Shown: positions 17,701 through 59,871 of the stretch, in pieces
Layout of the letters: each line of letters begins with the position of its first letter
Position numbering within the stretch: position 1 is the stretch's first letter
Assembly: GCA_028909515.1 (NCBI GenBank)
Contig: GCA_028909515.1_4811.1
Source of the DNA: a phage
Reading direction: 5' to 3' (one strand)
DNA: 64,000 nucleotides
Translations under genes and position numbers: made by a program
The notes under the pieces: generated by a model
Told to the model about the DNA's origin: nothing
What the model saw: only the letters and a program-made list of their open reading frames with translations
Database searches by the model: none

Positions 17701-17788
17701 CCACCCTCAAATAAGTATTGTGTATTATATCTAATGAAAAAAACTTAGGCAAACAATAATTATGGTTTGAATATGTATAACAACCGAT

Positions 17789-18090
17789 ATAGCCGCGCCT
17801 TTATTAGTGTGATACGGATGATACGGATAAAATGAGGCGTATTTTTATCCGTATCGGTGTATAAGCCGCGCTATCACTGGTGTGCTACGGATGATACGGA
17901 TGATACGGATACTTTTCATATATAAGAGTTTATAAAAAAATAAAATTAAATTAGATATATAATTTTAAATTAATTTATTTGAATTCCTATATAGTACGGC
18001 GGCAACGCGTATCATCCGTATCATCCGTAAGATTCTTTTGAAAACAACAACTTACTTGATACGGATGATACGTCATTATACGTATAAAAC
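17789..18090. repeat. Iteron-like locus 1: 9 bp ACGGATGAT repeats in both orientations around an AT-rich core
   Basis: A ~40 bp unit ending in TACGGATGATACGGAT occurs twice as a direct repeat. A 9 bp-stem hairpin lies between the copies. An AT-rich core at 17913-17995 is followed by inverted copies GTATCATCCGTATCATCCG. Confidence 0.6.
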
Positions 18091-18116
18091 TTGCGGCAAT
18101 CCTTTGCCGATGAATT

Positions 18117-18263: not shown

Positions 18264-19184
18264 TTAGTTCAGCTTAATTGCGGTGATCTGTCCGTAAACG
18301 GTAGATGTCAACGCGTCGGTGCACTGATAGTTTAAATACACATTACCAGGCGCGGCAAGAGTAATTACTTTTGTTGGGATGTTGCCGCCGAAGCGACCTG
18401 CAGCCCGAATGCCAGCTGACATGGCAAATGCATCATCCGTAATATCTGAATTGCTTGTTGACAATTTGACTGTAATTCCGGTATTCGCTTGAACGCCTGC
18501 TGTCGCGACAGTCAACTGACTTGCTGTTACAAGCCATTTCCCTGCAGGAAGGTTTAAGGTTGCCAGATTGACCAAAGTTGTTGGAGGATTGCTGACGCTA
18601 TTAGTGGCATTCTGGACGGTACTTGCTGCTGCATTAAGCACACCAGACCCATCAATTGATAGAGTTGTACCGACCTTTACGCCGCCTAAAGTAGATGCTG
18701 AGGCAATCGGCAATGAGTATTGGGTGACGCTGATTGTTCCATCGCCTGCGACGCTTATTCCGGTGCCTATTTTGACGCCACCAAGAACGGAGGCTGTTGC
18801 CGCTGGTAACGTGTATTGGTTGCCGCTGGTTTTCACAACTTTGACCGCGACAGCGTTTTTCGACCCTCCAGACTCCATGCCTATAATCACTGCTTCGCCA
18901 AAAGCAATGGTGATTGTTGATGCAGTCAAGCCAGTTTGAACGTCTGTGATGTTCATCTTAGGCACAGACAATGTCAGGTTAGGCTTGCTGGTCGAATCGC
19001 CATCATTGCCAATCATAAAGAATTGACCTACTGAGTTATACCCTGATGCAAGCGGCGGGCTCAGTGGAACAATCAAGTTTTTATCAGAAGTGAATTCTGA
19101 GACAATTGCCAAGCCATTAGCATACACTGCAGGCAAGACTGGAGTTTGTCCAGATAGAGGGAATGTGTTGATTGGTATCGTCAT
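18264..19184 (-). CDS. Fiber-repeat protein inside the head module
   Basis: ORF track gives 18264-19277 from a GTG. ATG at 19184 has a GAGGT site and follows the MuF stop. Two repeats: TLPAATASVLGGVKIGTGISVAGDGTISV and SLPIASASTLGGVKVGTTLSIDGSGVLNA. Confidence 0.5.
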   Translation of the reverse strand: MTIPINTFPLSGQTPVLPAVYANGLAIVSEFTSDKNLIVPLSPPLASGYNSVGQFFMIGNDGDSTSKPNLTLSVPKMNITDVQTGLTASTITIAFGEAVIIGMESGGSKNAVAVKVVKTSGNQYTLPAATASVLGGVKIGTGISVAGDGTISVTQYSLPIASASTLGGVKVGTTLSIDGSGVLNAAASTVQNATNSVSNPPTTLVNLATLNLPAGKWLVTASQLTVATAGVQANTGITVKLSTSNSDITDDAFAMSAGIRAAGRFGGNIPTKVITLAAPGNVYLNYQCTDALTSTVYGQITAIKLN

Positions 19185-19191
19185 AATGACC

Positions 19192-20043
19192 TCAGATAAT
19201 TGGTATTTTCCTGCATTTGCAGTGTATTGCCCATCCAGGAGGACCGATGTCACCCTTTTTGAACTTAAGTTCTCCACCTACTTCCCATAAGCGTTTGTCA
19301 TCAAGCTTGAATCTCATGCCGTCGACGTGCTCATGTGATATTCGCGGCTCTTTGCCTGCTCCTGAATGCGCCCACTCAAATTCCTCAACGCCATTCTGTC
19401 GCATCCTTTCATCACTTAATACGCAATAAAGTTTGCTCGTTTGGTCTTTGGCGATAAGGTCTACGCGTTTTGCAGAGAAGTGTTTTACATTCCTTAGTGC
19501 CGCCTGAATGCCTGACGTGCCTTGTTGCGCTGGGTCTGGCGAAGTCAGCGAAAGCATCACCGCTTCGTACACCCTGTTGTGAATATCTTCGCCAACCTTA
19601 GTCACTAAAGTCGTGTTGAACGTCTCGCTTGTTTTAAGAGTGTTCTCAACGAATTTATTATATGTGGCTTTTGGCGCTTCTATTCCTGCAGATTTAAGAC
19701 TTGCAAATGTAGCAGAAGTGGCACCCTTTTCAACTGACTTGATGAAATCTGCGGCAATCTTTGACCCGACACGGGCGAAAGCCTTTGCCCATTTCAGTTG
19801 CAGTCGCTTCATCAAGGTCTGAAAAGTTGAATCAGCAGAGTCTTGCGCAAAGAACTTTTTAACCTGCTTCTTTTCAAGCCACTCAGCAATTCCTGCTTGA
19901 TAGTCGTCAATCATCGCATAGCAAAGACCTTTCATCTCACGACGATAGGCCATCGCAATAGCATTGGATGGGATTATCGGACTGCCGCGCCCGATTCTAT
20001 CGGGTGAGCGGCGTTCACGTTTTTTCGAAGCTTTAAAAGCCAT
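19192..20043 (-). CDS. MuF-like minor head (head morphogenesis) protein
   Basis: C-terminal motif HEHVDG...PGWAIHCKCRKIP resembles the MuF/SPP1 gp7 family. ATG at 20043 overlaps the portal stop. Confidence 0.6.
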   Translation of the reverse strand: MAFKASKKRERRSPDRIGRGSPIIPSNAIAMAYRREMKGLCYAMIDDYQAGIAEWLEKKQVKKFFAQDSADSTFQTLMKRLQLKWAKAFARVGSKIAADFIKSVEKGATSATFASLKSAGIEAPKATYNKFVENTLKTSETFNTTLVTKVGEDIHNRVYEAVMLSLTSPDPAQQGTSGIQAALRNVKHFSAKRVDLIAKDQTSKLYCVLSDERMRQNGVEEFEWAHSGAGKEPRISHEHVDGMRFKLDDKRLWEVGGELKFKKGDIGPPGWAIHCKCRKIPII

Positions 20044-23238: not shown

Positions 23239-24699
23239 TTAAAGGTTAGAGAAGAAGCCGGATGCTGCAACGATTGGTTTCATCAATGCCATGATTGCTG
23301 CGTCCGCTTTGTTAGGTGATTTAACTCCACGCTTTGCCATGTCCTTTTTGGATTCAACTTTGAACTTGCCAAGAACAGACGTATCTTTGCGCGGCGCTGA
23401 CATCTCAAAAAGAAACGTCTCAATCTCTTCAGTAGTCCAAGCTGGAATTCCAAGTTCTGGTATGCCATCTGTGTCAATTGAAATCAACTCATCAGTCGGA
23501 TATACGGCCTGCCCAGTCGCATACTCGTATGTCTTTCTGAATCTCTCTGCAATCTCAGTCCACTTTTGCGCTTTTATGTTTGCGAAATGGTCTTTATTGA
23601 GTATTTCAACGTGTGGTAGTTCAAGAAAAACGTCATCAGGATCATCAACAGACCCTTGCGCGTTGAACGCATTAAATTCGATTCTTGGAAATGATGGATT
23701 TTCATGTATCGCATACTCGTTTAGTTCATCAAATTTTGAACCAGCAAAAGCGCCGACACCGATGGCGTCATAAGTTATAGAAGCGCCAAATGTAAGCGCA
23801 TCTTTCCAAACTCCGCTTGCCGATTTCAACAATTCATCTTCCAGACCTTCCCATGTCTTGATGCCGCGCAATACGTTTCCTGTAACGAATGCAGTGGCGT
23901 TAAGGTCGTCGCCATCGTCCGCTACGTCAAAGCCTATACGGTTAGACCCTGACAAACTCCAACCCAGCGTAGGGTGTTTGTGGAGGTTAAGCGCGGCCTT
24001 AACGAATGCGCGGTTGATTACAGATTTATCGCCGCCAGTCTTCGGCACGCCGCCATAAACGTGCTCTGCCTTTTTCGGGTCACGCTCGTACATGCCTGCA
24101 ATAACGTCCAGCATTGTTTGCGACAAGAATGGATTGTCTTGCCAGTTTATCTTTTTGACAATGGCATTCTTCGGCGGTCGCATGACAAAGTTTTGATAGA
24201 CGAAATCGGCCTCTTCATCAGGGTTAAAGATAATCCATATTTCGGACCCTTCTTTACGGATTGTCGGCTCAATAATGTCCCACTGTTCTTCAGTAAGCGC
24301 GTGCGCTTCTTCCAGCCAAAGAACATCAACGCCTTCTGTTGATTTGATTTCATCAACGTTACGTGCGATACCATAAAATAGAAATTCAGATTTAGTTCTT
24401 TTGTGTTCGATAGAGTTCTTTAATAAATTGAACTCATCTTTAAAATCAGAAATCTCTATTTTGTCTTTTAATAGAGTATATACAGATTCAGAAATCTTGT
24501 TCTGGAATTGTCGAACGCAAAGGAATTTTAATTTGAAGTTTGCCGCCAAATAAATAGCAAAACCAGCGGCATCGTGCGATTTGGAAGATGCACGACCGCC
24601 GTATATTACTTTGTATCGCGCTTTTGTCTTCCAGACTTCTTTTAAAGCAGGATTCAACTGGTACATGAATTTCCAATTATGTGTTAATATTTTATTCAT
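23239..24699 (-). CDS. Terminase large subunit
   Basis: 486 aa. Walker A VIYGGRASSKS and Walker B-like VLWLEEA in the N-terminal ATPase; acidic nuclease-like C-terminal half. Confidence 0.85.
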   Translation of the reverse strand: MNKILTHNWKFMYQLNPALKEVWKTKARYKVIYGGRASSKSHDAAGFAIYLAANFKLKFLCVRQFQNKISESVYTLLKDKIEISDFKDEFNLLKNSIEHKRTKSEFLFYGIARNVDEIKSTEGVDVLWLEEAHALTEEQWDIIEPTIRKEGSEIWIIFNPDEEADFVYQNFVMRPPKNAIVKKINWQDNPFLSQTMLDVIAGMYERDPKKAEHVYGGVPKTGGDKSVINRAFVKAALNLHKHPTLGWSLSGSNRIGFDVADDGDDLNATAFVTGNVLRGIKTWEGLEDELLKSASGVWKDALTFGASITYDAIGVGAFAGSKFDELNEYAIHENPSFPRIEFNAFNAQGSVDDPDDVFLELPHVEILNKDHFANIKAQKWTEIAERFRKTYEYATGQAVYPTDELISIDTDGIPELGIPAWTTEEIETFLFEMSAPRKDTSVLGKFKVESKKDMAKRGVKSPNKADAAIMALMKPIVAASGFFSNL

Positions 24700-30038: not shown

Positions 30039-30253
30039 CTTAGTGCGGCCCTTTCTTTTGCCTGCCGTGCAGGAGTGTACTGCAAATTTACTGTGGGTAC
30101 AAAATAGTACGGTACTGTCTAGGATTTTTTCTTTGAAAAGTTAGTGGACCAAATGTGTCGTATTTTGATTAGTGTACTACAAATTTCATCAAGTACCAAA
30201 ACGCACCAAAAGACCCATGCCATAAAAACCACACGAACGCAATAATCAATCGC

Positions 30254-30338
30254 CGTTACAGTTTCCAGCGTTACAATTCGAAAGCGAATGATTCGAAGCA
30301 TAATAATATGAAGCATAATGATTCGAAAGCGAATGATT
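30254..30338. repeat. Nested direct repeats in non-coding DNA
   Basis: ATTCGAAAGCGAATGATT twice, GAAGCATAAT twice between them, CGTTACA twice just upstream. The 18-mer contains a 5 bp palindrome. Confidence 0.6.
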
Positions 30339-30463
30339 GCGTGTAGGATAATATCGGTGGGGATTATTCTAGATGCATGTAATTTCGCATGCGTACTATT
30401 TTCGGACGAAGGGTCGGCATATTCCTCGTTTTAGTTCGGAACGAAGGGAAAGTTTTGCGCCTT

Positions 30464-30537
30464 TATAAAACAACGACTTACGCGACCCTCCCTAACGGTC
30501 CGATATAGGTGTCTATATAAAACAACGACTTACGCGA
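30464..30537. repeat. Perfect 22 bp direct repeat TATAAAACAACGACTTACGCGA, two copies
   Basis: Copies at 30464-30485 and 30516-30537. Confidence 0.7.
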
Positions 30538-30662
30538 TGTTCTCCATTTAACGTAATACCCGTTATGCGAACTAAGGCGCATCTCGGCGAAGATTATGCG
30601 ACGACGAAGGGAAGGATAAAGGAGTTTTCGCGGAGAAGCGCATCGGGATAGGGACGAAGAAA

Positions 30663-32617: not shown

Positions 32618-33545
32618 TCGAATGGCGGCCCTTCGGGGTCGCTTTTCATAGTGCAAATTGGTGGATTATGAATACTCTTATTCTCATCGCTACGTTGTCC
32701 ATCGGAAGTGGTCGCACCTTATCCCTTTATGACCATAGTGCAAATTGCGCTTACCCTACGCGCGTTGCGGCGATAGTTAATAGTGCAAATAAGATGCTAT
32801 TCGAGACTTGCTGGCGGGTCGATAACGAGAAAGGTCGGGTAGTCTTAGGTTATAGTGCAAATCTGCTGGTGGAGTCGTTCGATTGGACGGCTGAAGGTCG
32901 TAAATTGTTACGTAAAGTGACTAAAAGATGACTTATAATAATACACTTTCTAACGCGTTTATGGTTGCAACCTTCCCCGTCGTATTACCGACGGCCCTAG
33001 AAGTGGAGAAAATGTGTTCTAGGGCCGTTTTATAGTGCAAATTGGCTAGTGGCGGGAGAATTGCTCGCCTTCTTTGGCCGCCTCTCCAAAATCCTTGTAG
33101 AAATCGTCCATAGAACGGCCCATTTTACTATTGCCGTTTTCATCAATCATCGTGATGCCGTAGATGATATTCAGTTCACGAATAGCATTAAGCTTGGCTG
33201 ACGCCGCGACTTCTGGATCACGCACAAGCTTGACCAAATTGTGAATTGCACCTTTTACGCTCCACAAATCCTTGAGTGGCATCTCTTCCATACGCTTTTT
33301 GAAGCGCATTTTGTAGTATGGGTTGCGTTGCGCGCAAAGGATTCGCTGGCCAGTGTAGTTATCCGTTGCAACTTCCATTCCAAATACTAGTGCAAAAGCT
33401 GCGCGCATGTCATGGCCCTGAATAACAAGGTCAATGAACTCATCGAATAAAGCCTGATTGTGCTCTGCAAATCGCGGGTCTTCAAAGTCTTCAGGCATCG
33501 CTACATAATCTTGACTCATAGTGCAAAATCCCATAGTGCAAATTA
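32336..33545 (+). repeat. Same-orientation array of an 11 bp motif, ATAGTGCAAAT, at least 8 copies
   Basis: Copies near 32336 (variant), 32351 (variant), 32648, 32735, 32780, 32852, 33032, 33518 (variant) and 33534. Present in coding and non-coding DNA and in different frames. Confidence 0.6.
33046..33534 (-). CDS. Hypothetical early protein
   Basis: 162 aa. The start region overlaps two copies of the 11 bp motif; an alternative ATG lies at 33519. Confidence 0.45.
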   Translation of the reverse strand: MGFCTMSQDYVAMPEDFEDPRFAEHNQALFDEFIDLVIQGHDMRAAFALVFGMEVATDNYTGQRILCAQRNPYYKMRFKKRMEEMPLKDLWSVKGAIHNLVKLVRDPEVAASAKLNAIRELNIIYGITMIDENGNSKMGRSMDDFYKDFGEAAKEGEQFSRH

Positions 33546-33744
33546 ATAGTGTGAATTATACAATGGATGGACATTATATTCAAGTGCAGATTGATGTTCA
33601 TTATGGCTATAAACGTACACAAATCATAGTGCTGATAGAGTTGCGGACCGTGGTGCGTGGTGTACTGTTTGATACGTATAAAAGAAATCCATCCCTTTCG
33701 CCGCTTGCTATGCAAATCAATGACTTAGCCGCTGCTGGCTGGTT

Positions 33745-34120
33745 GAAGCGTATCATGACGTATCATCCGTATTGCCGCAAGTCTTTGTTTTTACTTATAT
33801 CTTACGGATGATACGTATAAATATAAGTTTAGTATAAGTATGAGGATGTAGAAAAAAATTAATTTAAATTAATTCAAAATGGAGTTAATTAATTTTCTGG
33901 AATTCTATATATATTATGTTTGCACCCGTATCATCCGTATCAGCGTATTTTTCCTTATAAATCAATAGCCCAATGATACGTCATGATACGTATGAATGAC
34001 TGCCTTCGCGGCAAAACAATCCCAGTGTATACCAACAATCCCAGGCGCGGCGCACCACAGGGCCACGGTACAATATCCTGTGAAGAGGTGACTCTCATTT
34101 CCTTATACGTATCATCATGG
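33745..34120. repeat. Iteron-like locus 2: GATACG-type repeats in both orientations around an AT-rich core
   Basis: GTATCATCCGTAT, ACGGATGATACG and GATACGTCATGATACG flank an AT-rich stretch at 33840-33920. Homologous to the locus at 17789-18090. Confidence 0.55.
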
Positions 34121-34483
34121 ACTACGATTACTAAAACTAAAAACATTATTAAAATTCTGAGCACCAACACCACAAGCACCAAGACCCACGGCTAACGCAC
34201 CGTTAGCCAATACTCCACGATAAAATATCCTATAAATTACAAACAATCCGCGTATATAATAGCACCATAATTATTTATTTTTGATTCAATATTTACACTA
34301 AAATAAGCCATTGTATTTTCCTCACTGTTCTATCCGTATTATTTAGTGGATTAAACTGTCATAAATACTTATAAACGTTGATTGCCACAATATGCAATAA
34401 TCTTGATAAATTATTATAATATTTTCGCTCTCTTAAATTACAGCCTTGAATCGTAAATAACCACAAAAAGCCTCACATTACAC

Positions 34484-34514
34484 AGGCAAACAAAAAGGGC
34501 CAATCGGCCCTCTT
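34484..34514 (-). terminator. Rho-independent terminator at the end of the minus-strand early operon
   Basis: On the minus strand: GGGCC, 4 nt loop, GGCCC with extended pairing, then TTTTTGTTTG, directly after the stop of the 34529-34981 gene. Confidence 0.55.
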
Positions 34515-34528
34515 AACATTAATCATAA

Positions 34529-34981
34529 TTAAAATATAAAATTCTTCACTCCAAGCCTTTTGAATTCTTTCCTTAACATTATATTAAACTTCTTCAATTT
34601 AGTTTTATTCATCCTTAGCGGATTGTAGGTGAACACCTTTTCTATTACTTCCTTACGCATCTTTGAGCGCATATTAGTTAAGTAATAATTCTTGAACATA
34701 TTAATAAGGTGATTGGCTTCCAGCTTAAGCTCAATTACTTCTTCCGATTCATCAAGCTCAAGCAGTCCTTTTTGCGTAAGAATATCTCTTAATATATCCT
34801 GACATTTCTTGCAATCACCTTTGCCTAAAAGCGAGTCGATGTAATCGCCGCTGACGCGCTCATCACCGAAATAAGTTGCGCGACCACAAAGGCTTTGCAC
34901 TTCTCCTTCATCAAAGTAGTGCGCACGATGAGCCCACTTCGGTATGGCCCAACCAGCGGCGATAAGCTTTTTACCCATCAC
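34529..34981 (-). CDS. Hypothetical early protein with Cys-rich N-terminus
   Basis: 150 aa. CGR...CKKC zinc-binding-like motif. Lys-rich C-terminal half encoded by AT-rich DNA. Confidence 0.4.
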   Translation of the reverse strand: MMGKKLIAAGWAIPKWAHRAHYFDEGEVQSLCGRATYFGDERVSGDYIDSLLGKGDCKKCQDILRDILTQKGLLELDESEEVIELKLEANHLINMFKNYYLTNMRSKMRKEVIEKVFTYNPLRMNKTKLKKFNIMLRKEFKRLGVKNFIF

Positions 34982-35403
34982 CCCTCCTTAACAACCCGAT
35001 AAGCAATAATGTCGCTGCCTTTGAGTGCTCCTATATGACCCCAGTGAAGATGGTCAGAAAGTCTCGACAGTACTTTATCACCTCCATTGCGCAGCTTGTA
35101 TTCAACAATCTCGCCAGGCACCGGATTCTCGCCACCAAACCACACGGTCCACGCTTCCTCCTTCGGCGCATCATCATCCACGCCTATAGTGGCAACAACG
35201 TCGTGCAACTGCTTAACGAGCGCCCACGCATCACGGACCTGCGAGCGTAATGCAACCAACTCGCGTTGCGCTTCACCATATTTCGCTTCCAGCGCGGCAT
35301 AGTCCTCATATTCAACGTAGCCGCCTTCATCATCCTTTACAACTTCGCAGGTGCAAGCGTGCTGCGTGCAATAATCAACATCGTAACGTTGTATCATGAT
35401 CAA
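34978..35403 (-). CDS. Hypothetical early protein sharing a C-terminal domain with the 36803-37303 product
   Basis: 141 aa. C-terminus WTVWFGGENPVPGEIV...SDIIAYRVVKEG. Confidence 0.5.
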   Translation of the reverse strand: MIMIQRYDVDYCTQHACTCEVVKDDEGGYVEYEDYAALEAKYGEAQRELVALRSQVRDAWALVKQLHDVVATIGVDDDAPKEEAWTVWFGGENPVPGEIVEYKLRNGGDKVLSRLSDHLHWGHIGALKGSDIIAYRVVKEG

Positions 35404-42345: not shown

Positions 42346-42993
42346 TTATCCTGTGGCCTGCATATTGCGTACATACTTCTGCTCTAATGAATAGATGAAG
42401 TCGGCGACAGTTAATCCCTTCGTGTGCCATTCATACATGGTGAAGCCTGTATTCAGGAAATAGCCGCGCACCTTGTCCATCGCTTCAGCTTCCTCCATTG
42501 AAGCCATCAGCGCGGCGACGTTGTCATAAGAAGGCACAAATCCCTTCTTGCGTAGCGCATTGCGCAAATCTTTAGTTCTGAATCCAATCTTGCAAGGGTC
42601 ATCACGGCCCGTGGATGATGCAACCTTCGGTAGCGCAAGGAACTCTTTAAGGAACATTGCAATGTTCAAGTCTCCTGCGTCATCAAGCTTCTGGATTCGG
42701 TTGCGACCGCGACCCTTGAATTCACTTGCACGAGGGTGAGCGCCAAAACAGTGCGCCCCTTCCAGTTTAGGGTCGATGATCATTACATCTTTACCAATGC
42801 GCAGCTCTACGTAGTAAAGATAAGACTCATCGACAAGCTTTGTGCGCTTGCAAGTGATTGAGTCCTTATCATAACCAAAGCCACGCAACACGGTTGAAAT
42901 CATCCGGTTCATTTCTTCGCCGTGAACGTCACTCTCTTTGTTCAGTTCACCAAGATTTTGAAAGAATTTAGCGATGTTGATTGCTTTATTCAT
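42346..42993 (-). CDS. Hypothetical early protein
   Basis: 215 aa ORF directly downstream of the helicase. Confidence 0.45.
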   Translation of the reverse strand: MNKAINIAKFFQNLGELNKESDVHGEEMNRMISTVLRGFGYDKDSITCKRTKLVDESYLYYVELRIGKDVMIIDPKLEGAHCFGAHPRASEFKGRGRNRIQKLDDAGDLNIAMFLKEFLALPKVASSTGRDDPCKIGFRTKDLRNALRKKGFVPSYDNVAALMASMEEAEAMDKVRGYFLNTGFTMYEWHTKGLTVADFIYSLEQKYVRNMQATG

Positions 42994-44663
42994 CAGAATT
43001 CATCCTTATCTCTTCCCAAAGAACGTTTACGCTCAATAACCTTCTTCAAGAATTCAATATCTTCAGGGTCAGACTCATCGCGGATGAGATACGCTAAGAT
43101 GGTCATCAAATCAGAAATGTATTCCCCTGATTCATTCTTAATCAGCGGCGTAAAGTAACCGCGCTGGTTGCGATAGGTTGCAGGCTCAAAACCAAGCTTC
43201 GACATGTGCGGCGCAAGGGTACGAGAGAAAGGCGACTTGCCGCACTTCGCTCTGAATCCCATAGCAATAGCACCACTGGTGATGTGCCAGCGTCCGCTGT
43301 GATGTCGGTCATAAGGCGCGGTGATGACGACTTCAACAAGGTCGTTGTCAACCATCTCATCACGGATAACGCCGCGCGCACGTTCCATTTCGTTCTTGCT
43401 GAACTCAGTAAGCATGCGAGATGTTTCACCAACAAACGCATTGTAACCTGCTTCGCCGTGCTTCTCCATCCACGCAGCACACTCAGCCATCAACTGCCAA
43501 ACGTCTTCTTTCAAAGTGGAAAGGTCAGCTTGGAAATCTTTCGACCAGTTCGGTTGCCCGTCCTTGTCAGCGAGTTGGCCAACAAAGATAGGATACACAC
43601 GACGGTTGCCCGTGTCATCGCGCTGCATACCTGCGTATTCATTGCCGTCCATGATAGCAATCCACTGGCGTGGTTTAACCTGCGTATCTTCAAATTTGAA
43701 GTCCAGGTCATCTTCTGTCTTAGTCAGGAATGCTTTCATGTTTTCGATGTCGGCCTTTTTAAAGCCTGTCATCTCGCCGACGTTCGCGATAATCGAGCGA
43801 CCCGTAATAGCTCGCAAGAACGGGTTGAAGTTTTGCGCGGCTAAGTTTAACGGAATCGGTGTTGCGTGGCGGTCGTTCATAATAGCTTCGCAAAGCAGCT
43901 TGCTAAAATAACTCTTCCCTGCGTTCTGGCCGCCGATGAGCGCGATGGAGATTGGCGCTTGACAGCCAGGGTTGGTCAGGCGGTTATAGAGCGATAGCCA
44001 AAAATACACACCGATTTGTCGGTTTAACTCTGTATCGAATGGTCGGAATAGCTCGATAAGGTATTTCTCGATGCGCGCAGTACCGTCCCATTCAGGCAGC
44101 TTCTTGTAGAAGAAGTCCATCAGGTCGTCGCGCTGATAACGCATGGCCCATTCCTTATAGGATTGAGCGACCTGACGTGAGTTTGGGTTGGACAATCCTG
44201 CTGCGTCGACAGCGGCAACTATCTCTGTGACTTCCAAAGTACGGTCGGTGAATGTTTCGCCGCGATGGTCGACTAAGCGCCCACGAAAAGTATCTTTGTG
44301 AGGGAATGGAACAACGCCACTTCCCTTATCAAACAACGCGTCGAAAACCGCATAACGGTTCATGTCACTCGTCCTGTCTGCCTGTAGAACGAAGTCATCT
44401 TTGGTAGGCTTGTAGTGAGGGAACTTGATTACCTGAAGTGAGGCGAGCAAGCGTGCTCTTTCAACCAAGTCTTCTTCACCGTAGCATTCCATGCGCTCTG
44501 AATCTTTTTCAACGGCTTTATGTTGAAGGCTGATTTTAGCTCTGGTGCCTTGCTGCTCTGCCGCCTGCATTTCTTCCGAAACGCCTGCATCTTGAATTTC
44601 GTCAAAGATTGCACCAAATTCATCACCTGTATCCTCTGGAAGATTGTCATTATTAATTGACAT
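42993..44663 (-). CDS. P-loop NTPase, replicative helicase (SF3 / primase-associated type)
   Basis: 556 aa. Walker A IALIGGQNAGKSYF. Sits downstream of the primase-like gene. Family assignment is inferred. Confidence 0.55.
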   Translation of the reverse strand: MSINNDNLPEDTGDEFGAIFDEIQDAGVSEEMQAAEQQGTRAKISLQHKAVEKDSERMECYGEEDLVERARLLASLQVIKFPHYKPTKDDFVLQADRTSDMNRYAVFDALFDKGSGVVPFPHKDTFRGRLVDHRGETFTDRTLEVTEIVAAVDAAGLSNPNSRQVAQSYKEWAMRYQRDDLMDFFYKKLPEWDGTARIEKYLIELFRPFDTELNRQIGVYFWLSLYNRLTNPGCQAPISIALIGGQNAGKSYFSKLLCEAIMNDRHATPIPLNLAAQNFNPFLRAITGRSIIANVGEMTGFKKADIENMKAFLTKTEDDLDFKFEDTQVKPRQWIAIMDGNEYAGMQRDDTGNRRVYPIFVGQLADKDGQPNWSKDFQADLSTLKEDVWQLMAECAAWMEKHGEAGYNAFVGETSRMLTEFSKNEMERARGVIRDEMVDNDLVEVVITAPYDRHHSGRWHITSGAIAMGFRAKCGKSPFSRTLAPHMSKLGFEPATYRNQRGYFTPLIKNESGEYISDLMTILAYLIRDESDPEDIEFLKKVIERKRSLGRDKDEF

Positions 44664-45972: not shown

Positions 45973-47055
45973 CTATTTTATGCCACCTGCACGACGATTT
46001 ATCATGTCAAGTTGATTCTCAATATAAGGCATGACGATTGCTTCAACAAAAGCGGTCCAACCTTTCTTGCCTTCCCCTTTACGGTGACAGTCGTGGGCGC
46101 AACCGAACACAAATTCATGTTCTGCACCAGGGATAGGGCCGCGAAAGTAAGCGCCATACGGGTCGCCGTTGGTGTGTTCTTCACCCCAAGGACAGATTAT
46201 GCGGCACTTGCCTGACATGTTCTCGATGACGTCACCATCAGACCCTTCACCCATCTTGCTGCGCGCTAGAATCTGCTGGGCTATTTTATACCAAACAGCA
46301 TCATACTTGTATTCATCGACGTCAATTTGAATCTCACGCTTTTGCGGCATGACGACGTGAAAGCCAAATGCCTGACAAATGTCTTCGATGGTGTAGCGCA
46401 ATGAGTAGTCTGCATGGACAAGTCGGCAGCGGAACGGGTCGCCGTTCTCATCGACATATTTATAGGGGCCGTCATGAGTCACACGCTTGTTGTTGATGCA
46501 CCCAGGAACACGGCCCACGCGCGTTACGTCTTTAATCGTGTTGTCGCCGCCCTTCTTGAGTACCATGTTAACGAAAGACCCAAGGAACGCTTTGAACTGA
46601 ATAAGATGGTCAATCGGTTCTTTAAAGAAGTACCAAAGCTGGTGGTTGTTCGGTGAAGTCTCGACGATGACAGTCGGCTTCAGTCGCTCAAAAAAGAATT
46701 CCAAATCTAAATCGCCTTTGGACCCTTTACCGTGACCGATGTCGTCGACCATCATCGCCATGCCGTGACCAAAGGCCGACTCTGTACGCCAGTATCGCAT
46801 CTCACCCGTCTTTGGGTTGGGAGACTTACGCATTGAACTGATGCAAGCATAGCCGTTTTGGTGCTGCATGAGCGGCTTTCCCAACTTCCAAGGCTTAGGC
46901 CAGAAGCTGCTGTTAATCTTCTTGCCGCGCTCGTCAGTCTGCACCGTTGCTTCAGGCGCAAACACCGTCATGACGCGCTCATCTTCTGGAATGCCTCTTT
47001 GGAGTTCTGTTAAAAACTCTTCGATTATTTTTGCTTCTTCTCTTAAACTAGCCAT
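45973..47055 (-). CDS. Primase-polymerase-like protein (archaeo-eukaryotic primase type, putative)
   Basis: 360 aa. Motifs MVDDIGHG and NHQLWYF, C-terminal Cys/His cluster CPWGEEH...CAHDCH. Lies upstream of the helicase. Family is inferred. Confidence 0.45.
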   Translation of the reverse strand: MASLREEAKIIEEFLTELQRGIPEDERVMTVFAPEATVQTDERGKKINSSFWPKPWKLGKPLMQHQNGYACISSMRKSPNPKTGEMRYWRTESAFGHGMAMMVDDIGHGKGSKGDLDLEFFFERLKPTVIVETSPNNHQLWYFFKEPIDHLIQFKAFLGSFVNMVLKKGGDNTIKDVTRVGRVPGCINNKRVTHDGPYKYVDENGDPFRCRLVHADYSLRYTIEDICQAFGFHVVMPQKREIQIDVDEYKYDAVWYKIAQQILARSKMGEGSDGDVIENMSGKCRIICPWGEEHTNGDPYGAYFRGPIPGAEHEFVFGCAHDCHRKGEGKKGWTAFVEAIVMPYIENQLDMINRRAGGIK

Positions 47056-58351: not shown

Positions 58352-59871
58352 AAACACAAGGGATGCGCCACCAGCTTCTGGCGCTTGATAAAGCAGGCCG
58401 CAGAAAATACTTTGCCTATTTCATGGAACAGGGTCTTGGTAAAACTTGGACCGCTTTGGCAGAGTTTGAAAAGCACTTCACTGCTGGCGCGTTCGATGCC
58501 ATGGTCGTCATCGCTCCAAACGGTGTCCACTCCAACTGGATTCGTCGTGAAGCACCAGAACACCTTTCCATCAAGTGGATTGGGCACTACTGGCGCGGCA
58601 ACGACAAGATGAAGACTAAAAAGGGCAAGGTGCTTTGGGAGAAGATGTTTGCTGATCACTACCCTGAAGGCGAAGTGCCTGCGCGCATCTTCTCATTCAA
58701 CATCGATACCGTCAACACACCAGTAGGTTATCAACACATCGAGTCGGTCTTGAAGAAATACCGCTGCCTGATGATCATTGATGAATCGACTCGCATCAAA
58801 AATAACACAGCAAAACGCTCCATCAAGGTCGTGGAATTGGGTCGGCTGGCAAAGGCCCGTCGAATCCTTTCTGGCACGCCGCTGCCGCGCTCGCCTGCGG
58901 ATATTTACATGCAATATCACTTCCTTGAAGCAGGCTTGCTCGGCACCAAATCTTTCCGCGCCTTCAACTCTGAATTCACTGTGCTACTTGAAGCGCACGA
59001 CCCAGAAATGCAAGCCATCCTCAAGAAAATCGGCGGCAATGGCTATGGGATTCCGCAAGTGCCGCGCAAAGACCAGTTTGGCCGACCGATGTACAAAAAC
59101 CTTGACAAGCTTATCCGGCTGATGGAACCGCACTATTTTCGTGCGACAAAAGCGGAATACTTGCCTGACCTTCCAGAGAAGGTGTATAAGTTTATCGACT
59201 TCGAGCTGTCGCCTAAACAACGCGATGTCTACGATGAACTCAAGAATGAGTACAACTATTTGATGGAATACAAGGGCGAAGAAGAAAACGTTAAGTTTGA
59301 GATGATCGCATCTCGCACTAAGATGAAGCAGGTTACATCAGGCTTTGTTAAGGTGTATGATGAGATGGTCTACATGGAAGACAACCCACGATTCACGGCC
59401 TTTAAGGACTATGTGGAAGGGGTGCTGGAAGACGACCCAGAGCGCAAATTCATTGTTTGGGCCATCTTTAAGGAAGAGATGAACCAGATTAAGGATTGGC
59501 TTGAGTCTGAAGGAGTGGTCACTGGTGTATATAACGGTGAGACGTCAAAAGAGCAGCGTGAGTTCTTGATTGATGACTTCCAGAAGAACACAGTCGAGAA
59601 CGGTGGGACGCAAGTGCTTGTTTGTCACGCTGCAGCGGCAGGAATCGGTATCACGCTTACCGCCGCCGACTTGGCAATCTATTATTCTTGCAACTATGAC
59701 AACGAGTTGCGCAAGCAATCTGAAGACCGAAATCACCGAATCGGCACAAAATCAAGCGTGTTGTATGTTGATTTTATTGGTGTTGATACCATCGACGAAG
59801 AAATTCAGCGTTCATTAAGTATGAAGTCTATGCTTGCTGATCACATCCTCGACGGCAAAAAGATGAATTAA
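58348..59871 (+). CDS. SNF2-family helicase
   Basis: 507 aa. Motif I MEQGLGKTWTAL, motif II MIIDESTRIKN, C-terminal block QSEDRNHRIGTKSSV. Confidence 0.8.
   Translation: MKTQGMRHQLLALDKAGRRKYFAYFMEQGLGKTWTALAEFEKHFTAGAFDAMVVIAPNGVHSNWIRREAPEHLSIKWIGHYWRGNDKMKTKKGKVLWEKMFADHYPEGEVPARIFSFNIDTVNTPVGYQHIESVLKKYRCLMIIDESTRIKNNTAKRSIKVVELGRLAKARRILSGTPLPRSPADIYMQYHFLEAGLLGTKSFRAFNSEFTVLLEAHDPEMQAILKKIGGNGYGIPQVPRKDQFGRPMYKNLDKLIRLMEPHYFRATKAEYLPDLPEKVYKFIDFELSPKQRDVYDELKNEYNYLMEYKGEEENVKFEMIASRTKMKQVTSGFVKVYDEMVYMEDNPRFTAFKDYVEGVLEDDPERKFIVWAIFKEEMNQIKDWLESEGVVTGVYNGETSKEQREFLIDDFQKNTVENGGTQVLVCHAAAAGIGITLTAADLAIYYSCNYDNELRKQSEDRNHRIGTKSSVLYVDFIGVDTIDEEIQRSLSMKSMLADHILDGKKMN

What the first reader, a model, noticed from the sequence alone, without database searches (positions are those of the whole stretch)
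17789..18090. Iteron-like repeat locus with AT-rich core between scaffold and fiber-repeat genes
ACGGATGAT-type 9 bp repeats occur as direct copies on one side and inverted copies on the other side of an ~80 bp AT-rich core, with a 9 bp-stem hairpin between the left copies. This resembles an origin of replication (iterons plus unwinding element) or a regulated bidirectional promoter. A homologous locus lies at 33745-34120.
Basis: partly seen in the sequence, partly recalled or inferred. Interest (0 to 1): 0.6.

Follow-up and report, generated by a model that had tools for sequence, protein, structure and literature searches.

The report
Origin-like repeat element, twin of pac
The repeat-flanked AT-rich element upstream of the head-protease gene of this Wifcevirus coliphage is real, conserved and one of two copies; it most likely serves as a replication origin for the phage's SaPI-Rep-like helicase, and its twin also contains the exact point where the packaged genome begins.

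Summary
The window is a Wifcevirus (PB1-like E. coli myophage). The 415-bp gap 17701-18115 holds four arrays of the 9-bp unit TGATACGGA, in opposite orientations around a ~95-bp core that is about 93% A+T. A collinear paralogue lies at 33670-34114. These two loci hold 17 of the 21 TGATACG copies in the 64-kb window.

The same two-locus layout occurs in Pbunavirus, Myosmarvirus and a Salmonella relative, at syntenic positions: upstream of the prohead protease and upstream of terS. Each lineage has its own repeat sequence. All share a GCGGC motif whose polarity flips at the core.

The twin locus contains the physical genome end. It is the left boundary of the direct terminal repeat (DTR) in Wifcevirus and MyoSmar, and the published putative pac site of JG024.

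The phage encodes a full-length structural homologue of SaPI1 Rep1, a self-loading SF3 helicase-initiator. Its C-terminal region diverges between lineages and has a winged-helix-like order of secondary-structure elements. SaPI origins have the same plan: short iterons in opposite orientation on each side of an AT-rich centre.

Best reading: an origin-type element (confidence about 0.55). Main rival: a small-terminase binding array that is a paralogue of pac (about 0.25). A bidirectional promoter is not supported. Nothing has been tested experimentally.

The parts
17701..18115 (.). Whole non-coding gap (locus 1) between the 45-aa ORF / head-fibre-like gene and the prohead protease gene
   Evidence: ORF map (no ORF of 40 aa or more); 67% A+T; no Rfam family reaches threshold
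17810..17828 (+). Array A: two tandem TGATACGGA units
17820..17855 (.). Left hairpin/cruciform: 13-bp stem formed by the end of array A and the inverted copy A' (17843-17855)
   Evidence: I9; -11 kcal/mol, z -5.0
17883..17912 (+). Array B: three tandem units (TGCTACGGA TGATACGGA TGATACGGA)
   Evidence: invariant in six Wifcevirus sequences except a C-to-A change in Bas99 that improves the match
17913..18007 (.). AT-rich core (candidate DNA-unwinding element), with the box GAATTCCTATATA shared with locus 2
   Evidence: 65/70 A+T; collinear with the locus 2 core; nearly invariant within the genus
18008..18029 (-). Array C: 2.5 units in inverted orientation; forms a perfect 22-nt inverted repeat with array B
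   Evidence: I1
18057..18085 (+). Array D: TGATACGGA TGATACGTC ATTATACGTA; pairs with array C as a hairpin with a 16-bp stem
   Evidence: I7; -17.6 kcal/mol, z -6.4
17792..17796 (-). GCGGC motif, one of four in locus 1 (also 17865-17869 on the - strand, 17999-18003 and 18093-18097 on the + strand); its polarity flips at the core
   Evidence: 41 of 42 such motifs in 8 loci of 4 lineages obey the same polarity
18094..18109 (-). Terminator-like hairpin ending the upstream operon, outside the element
17724..17752 (-). Sigma70-like promoter TTGCCT-17-TATAAT for the protease-scaffold-capsid operon, outside the element
   Evidence: equivalent promoter-like sequences seen by eye in PB1 and MyoSmar
33670..34114 (.). 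Locus 2: the paralogous element (arrays at 33749-33771 on -, 33803-33818 on +, 33927-33948 on -, 33973-33993 on +; AT-rich core 33819-33925)
33880..33880 (-). Physical left end of the packaged genome (left DTR boundary), inside the AT-rich core of locus 2
   Evidence: Four independent records start at this nucleotide. PhageTerm is stated for Mansfield (PMC6753283)
30128..33880 (-). Direct terminal repeat (about 3.75 kb) as inferred from related records
   Evidence: PMC6563267 (about 3.7 kb)
33046..33534 (-). Small terminase gene, 346 bp inside the left end
   Evidence: PDB 7UXE (E217 TerS), E 6e-34
42993..44663 (-). VapE-like SF3 helicase, the candidate initiator that reads the repeats
   Evidence: PF05272; 7PDS SaPI1 Rep1, E 4e-11; whole-chain fold match, E 1e-16, target-normalised TM 0.6; C-terminal region has a winged-helix-like order of elements and is divergent between lineages
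45973..47055 (-). RepB'-type primase
   Evidence: PF16793; 64% identical to PB1

Best explanation
Locus 1 is an origin-type cis element.

**Proposed mechanism.**
- The lineage-specific 9-bp repeats (TGATACGGA) are iterons. They are read by the variable C-terminal region, which has a winged-helix-like layout, of the phage's SaPI-Rep-like SF3 helicase (window 42993-44663).
- The GCGGC(A) motifs are conserved across lineages and point outward on each side. They are candidate start or recognition sites for the well-conserved RepB'-type primase.
- Locus 1 is one of two paralogous copies, in the manner of P4 ori/crr or SPP1 oriL/oriR. The other copy (locus 2) additionally contains the terminase cut that makes the left genome end.

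**Shown.**
- The repeats and their layout.
- The paralogy of the two loci.
- Conservation of the pair, with lineage-specific repeats, in four lineages. A locus-2-type element alone was found in two more lineages.
- The genome end lies inside locus 2.
- The phage encodes a Rep1-like helicase with a divergent C-terminus.

**Inferred.** Which protein binds the repeats, that the core melts, that replication starts here, and the role of GCGGC.
For: **1. Architecture matches SaPI origins.** Those have 6-12 short iterons, an AT-rich centre, and at least two iterons on each side pointing in opposite directions, bound by the Rep C-terminal winged helix, with two hexamers thought to self-load (PMC9371898). 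Locus 1 has 2+3 units on the left and 2.5+2.5 on the right of a 95-bp core.

**2. An initiator of that type is encoded.**
- Sequence match to 7PDS, E 4e-11. 7PDS is SaPI1 Rep1 with DNA.
- The AlphaFold2 model has pLDDT 84.8. The top six Foldseek hits are the six 7PDS chains, E 1e-16 to 1e-14, with 466-484 aligned columns against targets of 448-457 residues.
- Other SF3 initiator-helicases follow in the hit list.
- Residues 436-504 have the element order H-E-H-H-E-E.

**3. Co-variation.**
- The repeat sequence differs by lineage but is shared by both loci of each genome: Wifcevirus TGATACGGA; PB1 GGWAATTWGG (exact copies only at the two loci); MyoSmar TACTTTTCG; PCSE1 ATATCGGC / ATATAACG (9-10 copies in the loci, none in the rest of the 22 kb).
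- FoX7 (AATAACGS) and a metagenomic relative (TATCCGCAAG) have such arrays at a locus-2-type element.
- The C-terminal ~120 residues of the helicase are the divergent part of the protein, and that region alone finds no database relatives.

**4. Position.** The locus-2-type element lies directly after the helicase gene in PB1, MyoSmar and FoX7, as SaPI ori does after rep. In FoX7 it stays with the helicase gene, 2.9 kb from terS.

**5. Polar motif.** 41 of 42 GCGGC motifs flip polarity at the core in 8 loci. The flip is local, not genome-wide.

**6. Purifying selection.** By eye, the element differs from FEC19 at about 7 of about 300 positions, while the adjacent coding genes differ by about 3% and about 10-12% (my estimates from alignments). 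Changes inside repeats switch between allowed variants.
Against: - No replication data exist for any of these phages.
- Locus 1 itself is not next to the helicase gene. In this window even locus 2 is 8.5 kb from it.
- The twin locus is demonstrably the packaging end and sits next to terS in four lineages, which a pure origin model does not predict.
- The repeat unit is 9 bp, against 5-6 nt in SaPIs. The arrays also form extra inverted pairs (hairpins) not described for SaPI ori.
- Locus 1 was not found upstream of the protease gene in FoX7, so a second copy is not universally needed. Only part of that genome was scanned.
- GC skew gives no origin signal, because it follows gene orientation.
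- Another repeat-rich non-coding stretch at 30260-30540 is an untested alternative origin candidate.
Confidence: 0.55

Rival explanations
1. The repeats are binding sites for the small terminase, or for a terminase complex. On this reading locus 2 is the true pac / DTR-end site. Locus 1 is an uncut paralogue that docks terminase, for example for synapsis of two sites as proposed for T4 gene 16 / gene 19, or to couple head-gene expression to packaging.
For: - The genome end maps inside the locus 2 core between oppositely oriented arrays in Wifcevirus and next to the arrays in MyoSmar.
- The published putative pac site of JG024 (59,376, supported by a pac restriction fragment; PMC10913387) is the same nucleotide in the PB1-type locus 2 core.
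- terS lies 350-600 bp downstream of the end in four lineages.
- Repeats on both sides of a cut site are known from the P1 and SPP1 pac sites (own knowledge).
- Locus 1 differs from locus 2 exactly at the cut position: TTTA... in place of GGAG.
Against: - In FoX7, terS has no array upstream, and the element stays with the helicase gene.
- E217 TerS, the closest solved relative, showed no appreciable DNA binding in vitro (review PMC9611059).
- The mirror-symmetric layout with a polarity flip fits a bidirectional element better than a directional packaging signal.
- No record starts at locus 1.
- A second pac-like site has no established role.
Confidence: 0.25
2. The element is an upstream control region. 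A phage DNA-binding regulator would time the strong sigma70-like promoters that follow both loci: the protease-scaffold-capsid operon after locus 1, and terS after locus 2.
For: - A near-consensus sigma70-like promoter lies just downstream of each locus in the window. Similar promoter-like sequences are visible by eye in PB1, MyoSmar and PCSE1.
- The JG024 authors predicted a sigma70 promoter inside the PB1-type locus 1 core (PMC3008698).
Against: - Only two such loci exist per genome, although many late operons do.
- The arrays are symmetric about the AT-rich core, not about the promoters.
- In FoX7 the element is not upstream of terS or of the protease gene.
- The scan finds no promoter above chance in the core of this window.
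- This reading does not explain the genome end in locus 2.
Confidence: 0.1
3. Locus 1 is a functionless duplicate of the locus 2 region, kept by chance or hitch-hiking.
For: The two loci are paralogous. Locus 1 is missing upstream of the FoX7 protease gene.
Against: - It is kept at the same syntenic position in four lineages whose proteins are only 30-55% identical.
- The repeats of the two loci have changed together in each lineage.
- Within Wifcevirus the element is at least as conserved as the neighbouring coding DNA.
Confidence: 0.04

Closest known systems
SaPI replication origins with Rep self-loading helicase (SaPI1, SaPIbov1, SaPI5)
   Same: - Short repeats on both sides of an AT-rich centre, in opposite orientation.
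- The repeat sequence is element-specific.
- The initiator is an SF3-type helicase with a C-terminal DNA-reading domain; the phage protein matches SaPI1 Rep1 over the whole chain.
- In three related phage lineages the element lies directly after the helicase gene.
   Different: - The units are 9 bp rather than 5-6 nt.
- There are extra inverted pairs that can form hairpins.
- There are two copies per genome.
- Locus 1 is 25 kb from the helicase gene.
- The twin copy contains the packaging end.
- The primase is a separate RepB'-type protein.
- No binding or replication assay has been done.
Satellite phage P4 ori and crr (alpha primase-helicase), and SPP1 oriL / oriR (G38P)
   Same: Two distant loci on one genome carry the same initiator-binding repeats. 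One of them lies in a late-gene region (own knowledge).
   Different: The initiator families and repeat layouts differ. Neither locus is reported to hold the packaging cut.
pac sites with repeats on both sides of the cut (P1 pac, SPP1 pacL-pacC-pacR)
   Same: Locus 2 has a terminase cut between flanking repeat clusters in a bendable AT-rich stretch, next to terS.
   Different: Locus 1 has no known cut and is not next to terS. The binder is unknown. These phages make an exact 3.6-3.8-kb DTR (Wifcevirus, MyoSmar), or reportedly package by headful (Pbunavirus).
T7 concatemer junction (pacB with the phiOR promoter / secondary origin)
   Same: An origin-like element lies at the terminal-repeat boundary, which suggests that end formation is coupled to local DNA synthesis (own knowledge).
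   Different: T7 uses its own RNA polymerase promoters and a 160-bp repeat. It has no iteron arrays.
Classical plasmid iteron origins (RepA/pi/TrfA type) and RSF1010 oriV
   Same: Repeats plus an AT-rich region. A RepB'-type primase is encoded, as in RSF1010.
   Different: [quoted passage not shown] No ssiA/ssiB-like sequence was recognised here.

Membership tests
SaPI-Rep-type origin | At least two short iterons on each side of an AT-rich centre, pointing in opposite directions | tested here: met
   Arrays A and B (+) lie left of a 95-bp AT-rich core, and array C (-) lies right of it. The units are 9 bp, not 5-6 nt.
SaPI-Rep-type origin | The origin lies immediately downstream of the rep (helicase) ORF | tested here: not met
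   Locus 1 is about 25 kb from the helicase gene, and locus 2 in this window is 8.5 kb from it. The feature is met only for the locus-2-type element of PB1, MyoSmar and FoX7.
SaPI-Rep-type origin | The genome encodes a Rep-type SF3 self-loading helicase | tested here: met
   PF05272; 7PDS E 4e-11; Foldseek E 1e-16, target-normalised TM 0.58-0.62 over the whole chain
SaPI-Rep-type origin | The C-terminal winged-helix domain of Rep recognises the iterons specifically | tested here: inconclusive
   The model shows the element order H-E-H-H-E-E at residues 436-504, with pLDDT 81-92. The region is lineage-variable. Binding cannot be tested here.
SaPI-Rep-type origin | The fragment supports Rep-dependent replication | not testable with these tools
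   Needs a plasmid origin assay or marker-frequency data.
pac / terminal cleavage site | A virion DNA end maps at the site | tested here: not met
   None of the 29 related records starts at locus 1. Ends map at locus 2.
pac / terminal cleavage site | Bound by small terminase | not testable with these tools
   The only indirect evidence is that E217 TerS was reported not to bind DNA appreciably in vitro (PMC9611059).
Classical iteron plasmid origin | Several 17-22-bp direct repeats on one side of an AT-rich region | tested here: not met
   The units are 9 bp and lie in both orientations on both sides of the core.
Divergent (bidirectional) promoter region | Divergently transcribed genes, with promoters in the core | tested here: not met
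   Both flanking genes are on the minus strand. The promoter-like and terminator-like sites lie outside the element.
Known structured RNA | A match to an Rfam family at its gathering score | tested here: not met
   Only sub-threshold plant miRNA-precursor matches, caused by the long inverted repeat.

The most novel reading that the evidence does not exclude
One type of element may do two jobs in PB1-like phages. On this reading it is a replication origin opened by a SaPI-Rep-like helicase, and at the copy next to terS the opened or replicating AT-rich core is the substrate that terminase cuts. The cut makes the left genome end. Origin firing rightward through the repeat region would then also supply the second copy of the 3.7-kb terminal repeat that each packaged genome needs. 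Locus 1 would be the origin-only copy, because it lacks the cut-site bases.
Probability: 0.2. Interest if true: 0.75.

Novelty: new variant of a known kind. Interest (0 to 1): 0.55.

Why it matters
PB1-like myophages include the Pbunavirus phages, which the BASEL study (PMC11990801) describes as among the Pseudomonas phages most used for personalised therapy, and the very fast-replicating Wifcevirus coliphages. I found no description of their replication origin. Their packaging signal is known only as a predicted pac site in an AT-rich region.

This work makes three points testable:
- It defines a concrete pair of cis elements that is conserved across genera.
- It names a candidate initiator, a SaPI-Rep-like helicase with a lineage-variable C-terminus.
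- It places the physical genome end inside one of the two elements.

Three questions follow. Where does replication start? How is the long terminal repeat made? Are replication and packaging physically coupled?

The result also matters for synthetic rebooting and engineering of these phages, because insertions or junctions placed in these gaps would probably be harmful.

Tried and rejected
- **Coding potential.** No ORF of 40 aa or more lies in the gap.
- **Structured RNA.** No Rfam family reaches threshold.
- **Satellites or plasmids carrying the element.** No match to locus 1 in 5,426 E. coli genomes or 72,556 plasmids.
- **Viral contig scan.** An IMG/VR scan for TACGGATGATACGGAT returned only four Wifcevirus genomes, plus single matches in other contigs that look like chance.
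- **GC skew as an origin signal.** It follows gene orientation and is uninformative.
- **GCGGC as a genome-wide polar signal.** The polarity flip is local only, and the motif density at the loci is not unusual.
- **DnaA boxes.** The repeat differs from TTATCCACA at 3 of 9 positions (by eye), so this was dropped.
- **IHF sites.** No convincing consensus was seen.
- **Promoter in the core.** None above chance in this window.
- **Transcription start sites of Pbunavirus 14-1 (PMC10914365).** The supplementary tables are not held.
- **The E217 terminase paper.** It is not held.
- **Protein search with the helicase C-terminal 157 residues alone.** It found nothing.
- **MyoSmar gp001 as terS.** Rejected. 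The real terS is gp006.

Full report
**What the window is.** The 561 bases around the finding match 29 phage records at 95-99.5% identity. All are Wifcevirus or close relatives: E. coli and Shigella myophages of 66-72 kb. The genus is a distant relative of the Pseudomonas Pbunavirus (PB1-like) phages (PMC11990801). The window runs in the opposite orientation to most of these records.

**Check of the observation.**
- ACGGATGAT occurs 10 times, against 0.61 expected; no shuffle reaches that number.
- All 12 GATACGKAT copies and 17 of 21 TGATACG copies fall in two places: 17810-18085 and 33670-34114.
- In locus 1 the 9-bp unit TGATACGGA forms four arrays: two units at 17810-17828 (+), three at 17883-17912 (+), 2.5 at 18008-18029 (-), and about three at 18057-18085 (+).
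- A perfect 22-nt inverted repeat brackets a 100-nt stretch that is 65/70 A+T at its richest.
A second hairpin, with a 16-bp stem, lies on the right. Both fold far better than shuffled controls.
- The gap contains no ORF of 40 aa or more and no known RNA family.
- The two loci align collinearly: array, AT-rich core with a shared GAATTC(C)TATATA box, inverted array, second array, then GCGGCAA.

**Setting of locus 1.**
- Both neighbouring genes are on the minus strand. Upstream lie a MuF-like head morphogenesis gene, a head-fibre-like gene and a 45-aa ORF. Downstream lies the prohead protease/scaffold gene, followed by the major capsid gene.
- A terminator-like hairpin (18109-18094) and a near-consensus sigma70-like promoter (17752-17724) sit at the two edges of the gap, outside the repeat element.
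- This layout does not fit a bidirectional promoter.

**What the twin locus is.**
- Four independent records (WFC, Ro157lw, SP13, Mansfield) begin at the same nucleotide. It is the complement of window 33880, in the middle of the AT-rich core of locus 2.
- For Mansfield the start is the boundary of a 3,673-bp DTR predicted by PhageTerm (PMC6753283). For WFC a repeat of about 3.7 kb was reported (PMC6563267). In the window the repeat runs from 33880 down to about 30128.
- The first gene inside it, 33046-33534 on the minus strand, is the small terminase (E217 TerS, PDB 7UXE, E 6e-34).
- In Serratia phage MyoSmar the PhageTerm boundary lies 387 bp upstream of its terS, next to that phage's own repeats.
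- In Pbunavirus JG024 the published putative pac site at 59,376 is supported by a pac restriction fragment (PMC10913387). It is the same nucleotide at which three other Pbunavirus records start, and it lies in the core of the PB1-type locus 2.
- A further Pbunavirus study placed the predicted pac site in an AT-rich region and remarked that it could be an origin (PMC6521218).

Locus 2 is therefore where the packaged genome begins.

**Conservation beyond the genus.**
- A long non-coding gap upstream of the protease gene, with short repeats in both orientations around an AT-rich core, also exists in PB1, MyoSmar and Salmonella phage PCSE1. In each genome the same repeats recur upstream of terS.
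- The repeat sequence is different in each lineage:
  - GGWAATTWGG in PB1, with exact copies only at these two loci in 65.8 kb.
  - TACTTTTCG in MyoSmar.
  - ATATCGGC / ATATAACG in PCSE1, with 9-10 copies in the two loci and none in the rest of 22 kb.
- A metagenomic relative has TATCCGCAAG repeats at its locus 2.
- Xanthomonas phage FoX7 has one such element (AATAACGS, six copies) directly after its helicase gene and 2.9 kb from terS. It has none upstream of terS or of the protease gene in the parts I read.
- Within Wifcevirus, by eye the element differs from FEC19 at about 7 of about 300 positions, while the adjacent genes differ by about 3% and about 10-12% (my estimates from the alignments). 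Changes inside repeats switch between variants that occur elsewhere in the arrays.
- The part of locus 2 outside the terminal repeat differs greatly between this window and WFC, yet it keeps repeat copies.
- A second motif, GCGGC(A), is common to all lineages. It reads GCCGC on the upstream side of the core and GCGGC on the downstream side in 41 of 42 cases in eight loci. The loci are related, so the binomial P of 2e-11 overstates independence. The flip is local, not genome-wide.

Together these results show a functional cis element, read by a factor whose specificity has changed together with the repeats of both loci.

**Which factor?** Two candidates stand out.
- Small terminase, because of the genome end and the neighbouring terS gene.
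- The 556-aa VapE-like protein (42993-44663):
  - It matches SaPI1 Rep1 by sequence (7PDS, E 4e-11).
  - A confident AlphaFold2 model (pLDDT 84.8) has the six 7PDS chains as its best fold matches, aligned over essentially the whole target chain (E 1e-16 to 1e-14). Other SF3 initiator-helicases follow.
  - Its ATPase core is conserved between lineages, but the last ~120 residues are not. That region alone finds no relatives in the large protein database.
  - In the model, residues 436-504 have the element order helix-strand-helix-helix-strand-strand, as in a winged helix.

SaPI origins are described as follows (PMC9371898). They have 6-12 short iterons immediately after rep, with an AT-rich centre and at least two iterons on each side pointing in opposite directions. 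The iterons are bound by the Rep C-terminal winged helix, and a hexamer is thought to load on each side. Locus 1 has that plan. The locus-2-type element lies directly after the helicase gene in PB1, MyoSmar and FoX7.

The phage also encodes a RepB'-type primase that is 64% identical to its PB1 counterpart. That fits a cross-lineage motif such as GCGGC, but the link is only an inference.

**Weighing the readings.**
- The origin reading explains five things: the mirror symmetry, the AT-rich core, the lineage-specific repeats, the conserved polar motif, and the element staying with the helicase gene in FoX7. Two copies per genome also have precedents (P4 ori/crr, SPP1 oriL/oriR; own knowledge).
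- The origin reading does not by itself explain why the genome end lies in the core of the twin locus in three genera.
- The terminase reading explains the genome end, but not four other points: locus 1 itself, the FoX7 layout, the symmetry, and the reported lack of DNA binding by E217 TerS (PMC9611059).
- I rate the readings as follows: origin-type element about 0.55, terminase array about 0.25, promoter control region about 0.1, and a functionless duplicate a few per cent.
- A combined model, in which the opened origin at locus 2 is what terminase cuts, is attractive but untested.

**Limits.**
- All functional statements are inferences from sequence, comparative layout and a predicted structure.
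- Record starts could in part reflect copied conventions. However, PhageTerm is stated explicitly for Mansfield and MyoSmar, and a restriction fragment supports the JG024 site.
- Only parts of the FoX7, PCSE1 and MyoSmar genomes were read.
- The percentage differences quoted for the alignments are my own estimates from the alignment blocks, not tool outputs.

Noticed in passing
window 30073-30190: The right boundary of the terminal repeat (about 30128, ...GGTCCACTAACTTTTCAAAGAAA| read on the minus strand) is flanked by two direct copies of AAATTTG(T/C)AGTACACT about 100 bp apart. It shows no similarity to the left boundary.
   Followed up: partly
window 30260-30540: A repeat-rich non-coding stretch lies inside the terminal repeat. 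It has a tandem array with a 15-bp period (30267-30354, 4-5 units) and a 25-nt direct repeat (30461-30485 and 30513-30537, 96% identical). Its function is unknown; it is another candidate cis element (origin, regulation or DNA-entry control).
   Followed up: partly
window 34120-34500: This tract is strongly C/A-rich on the + strand (GC skew -0.29 for 34001-35000) and lies next to locus 2. PB1 and MyoSmar have an equivalent G/T-rich tract upstream of their locus 2. PB1 and FoX7 have a C/A-rich tract downstream; in FoX7 it consists of tandem CATCAACCC and GGCAACAACCCC units annotated as a gene.
   Followed up: no
window 33046-33534 and 23239-24699: The small terminase gene lies inside the terminal repeat, about 8 kb from the large terminase gene. 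It is preceded by a near-consensus sigma70-like promoter (TTGAAT-17-TATAAT, 33583-33555).
   Followed up: partly
window 18264-19277: A head-fibre-like gene (PF11133) lies between the MuF-like gene and locus 1 in Wifcevirus. PB1 and MyoSmar have only two small ORFs there. One stray ACGGATGAT copy lies inside this gene at 18432-18440 (minus strand).
   Followed up: no
window 17792-18097 and 33700-34051; L008, L009, L012, L013, L050: GCGGC(A) motifs flip polarity at the AT-rich core in every locus of four lineages (41 of 42). No binding partner is known; a link to the primase is a guess.
   Followed up: partly
L010 3560-4030 and L052 9530-10130 (Xanthomonas phage FoX7): FoX7 keeps one iteron/AT-core element directly after its helicase gene. 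It lacks one upstream of the protease gene and upstream of terS, so the second copy and the terS linkage are not universal.
   Followed up: partly
L004 2010-2190 versus window 33881-34060: The half of locus 2 that lies outside the terminal repeat is largely different in sequence between this phage and WFC, yet both versions keep GATACG-type repeat copies and the TATATATAGAATTC...TTAATTAACTCC box just before the cut.
   Followed up: partly
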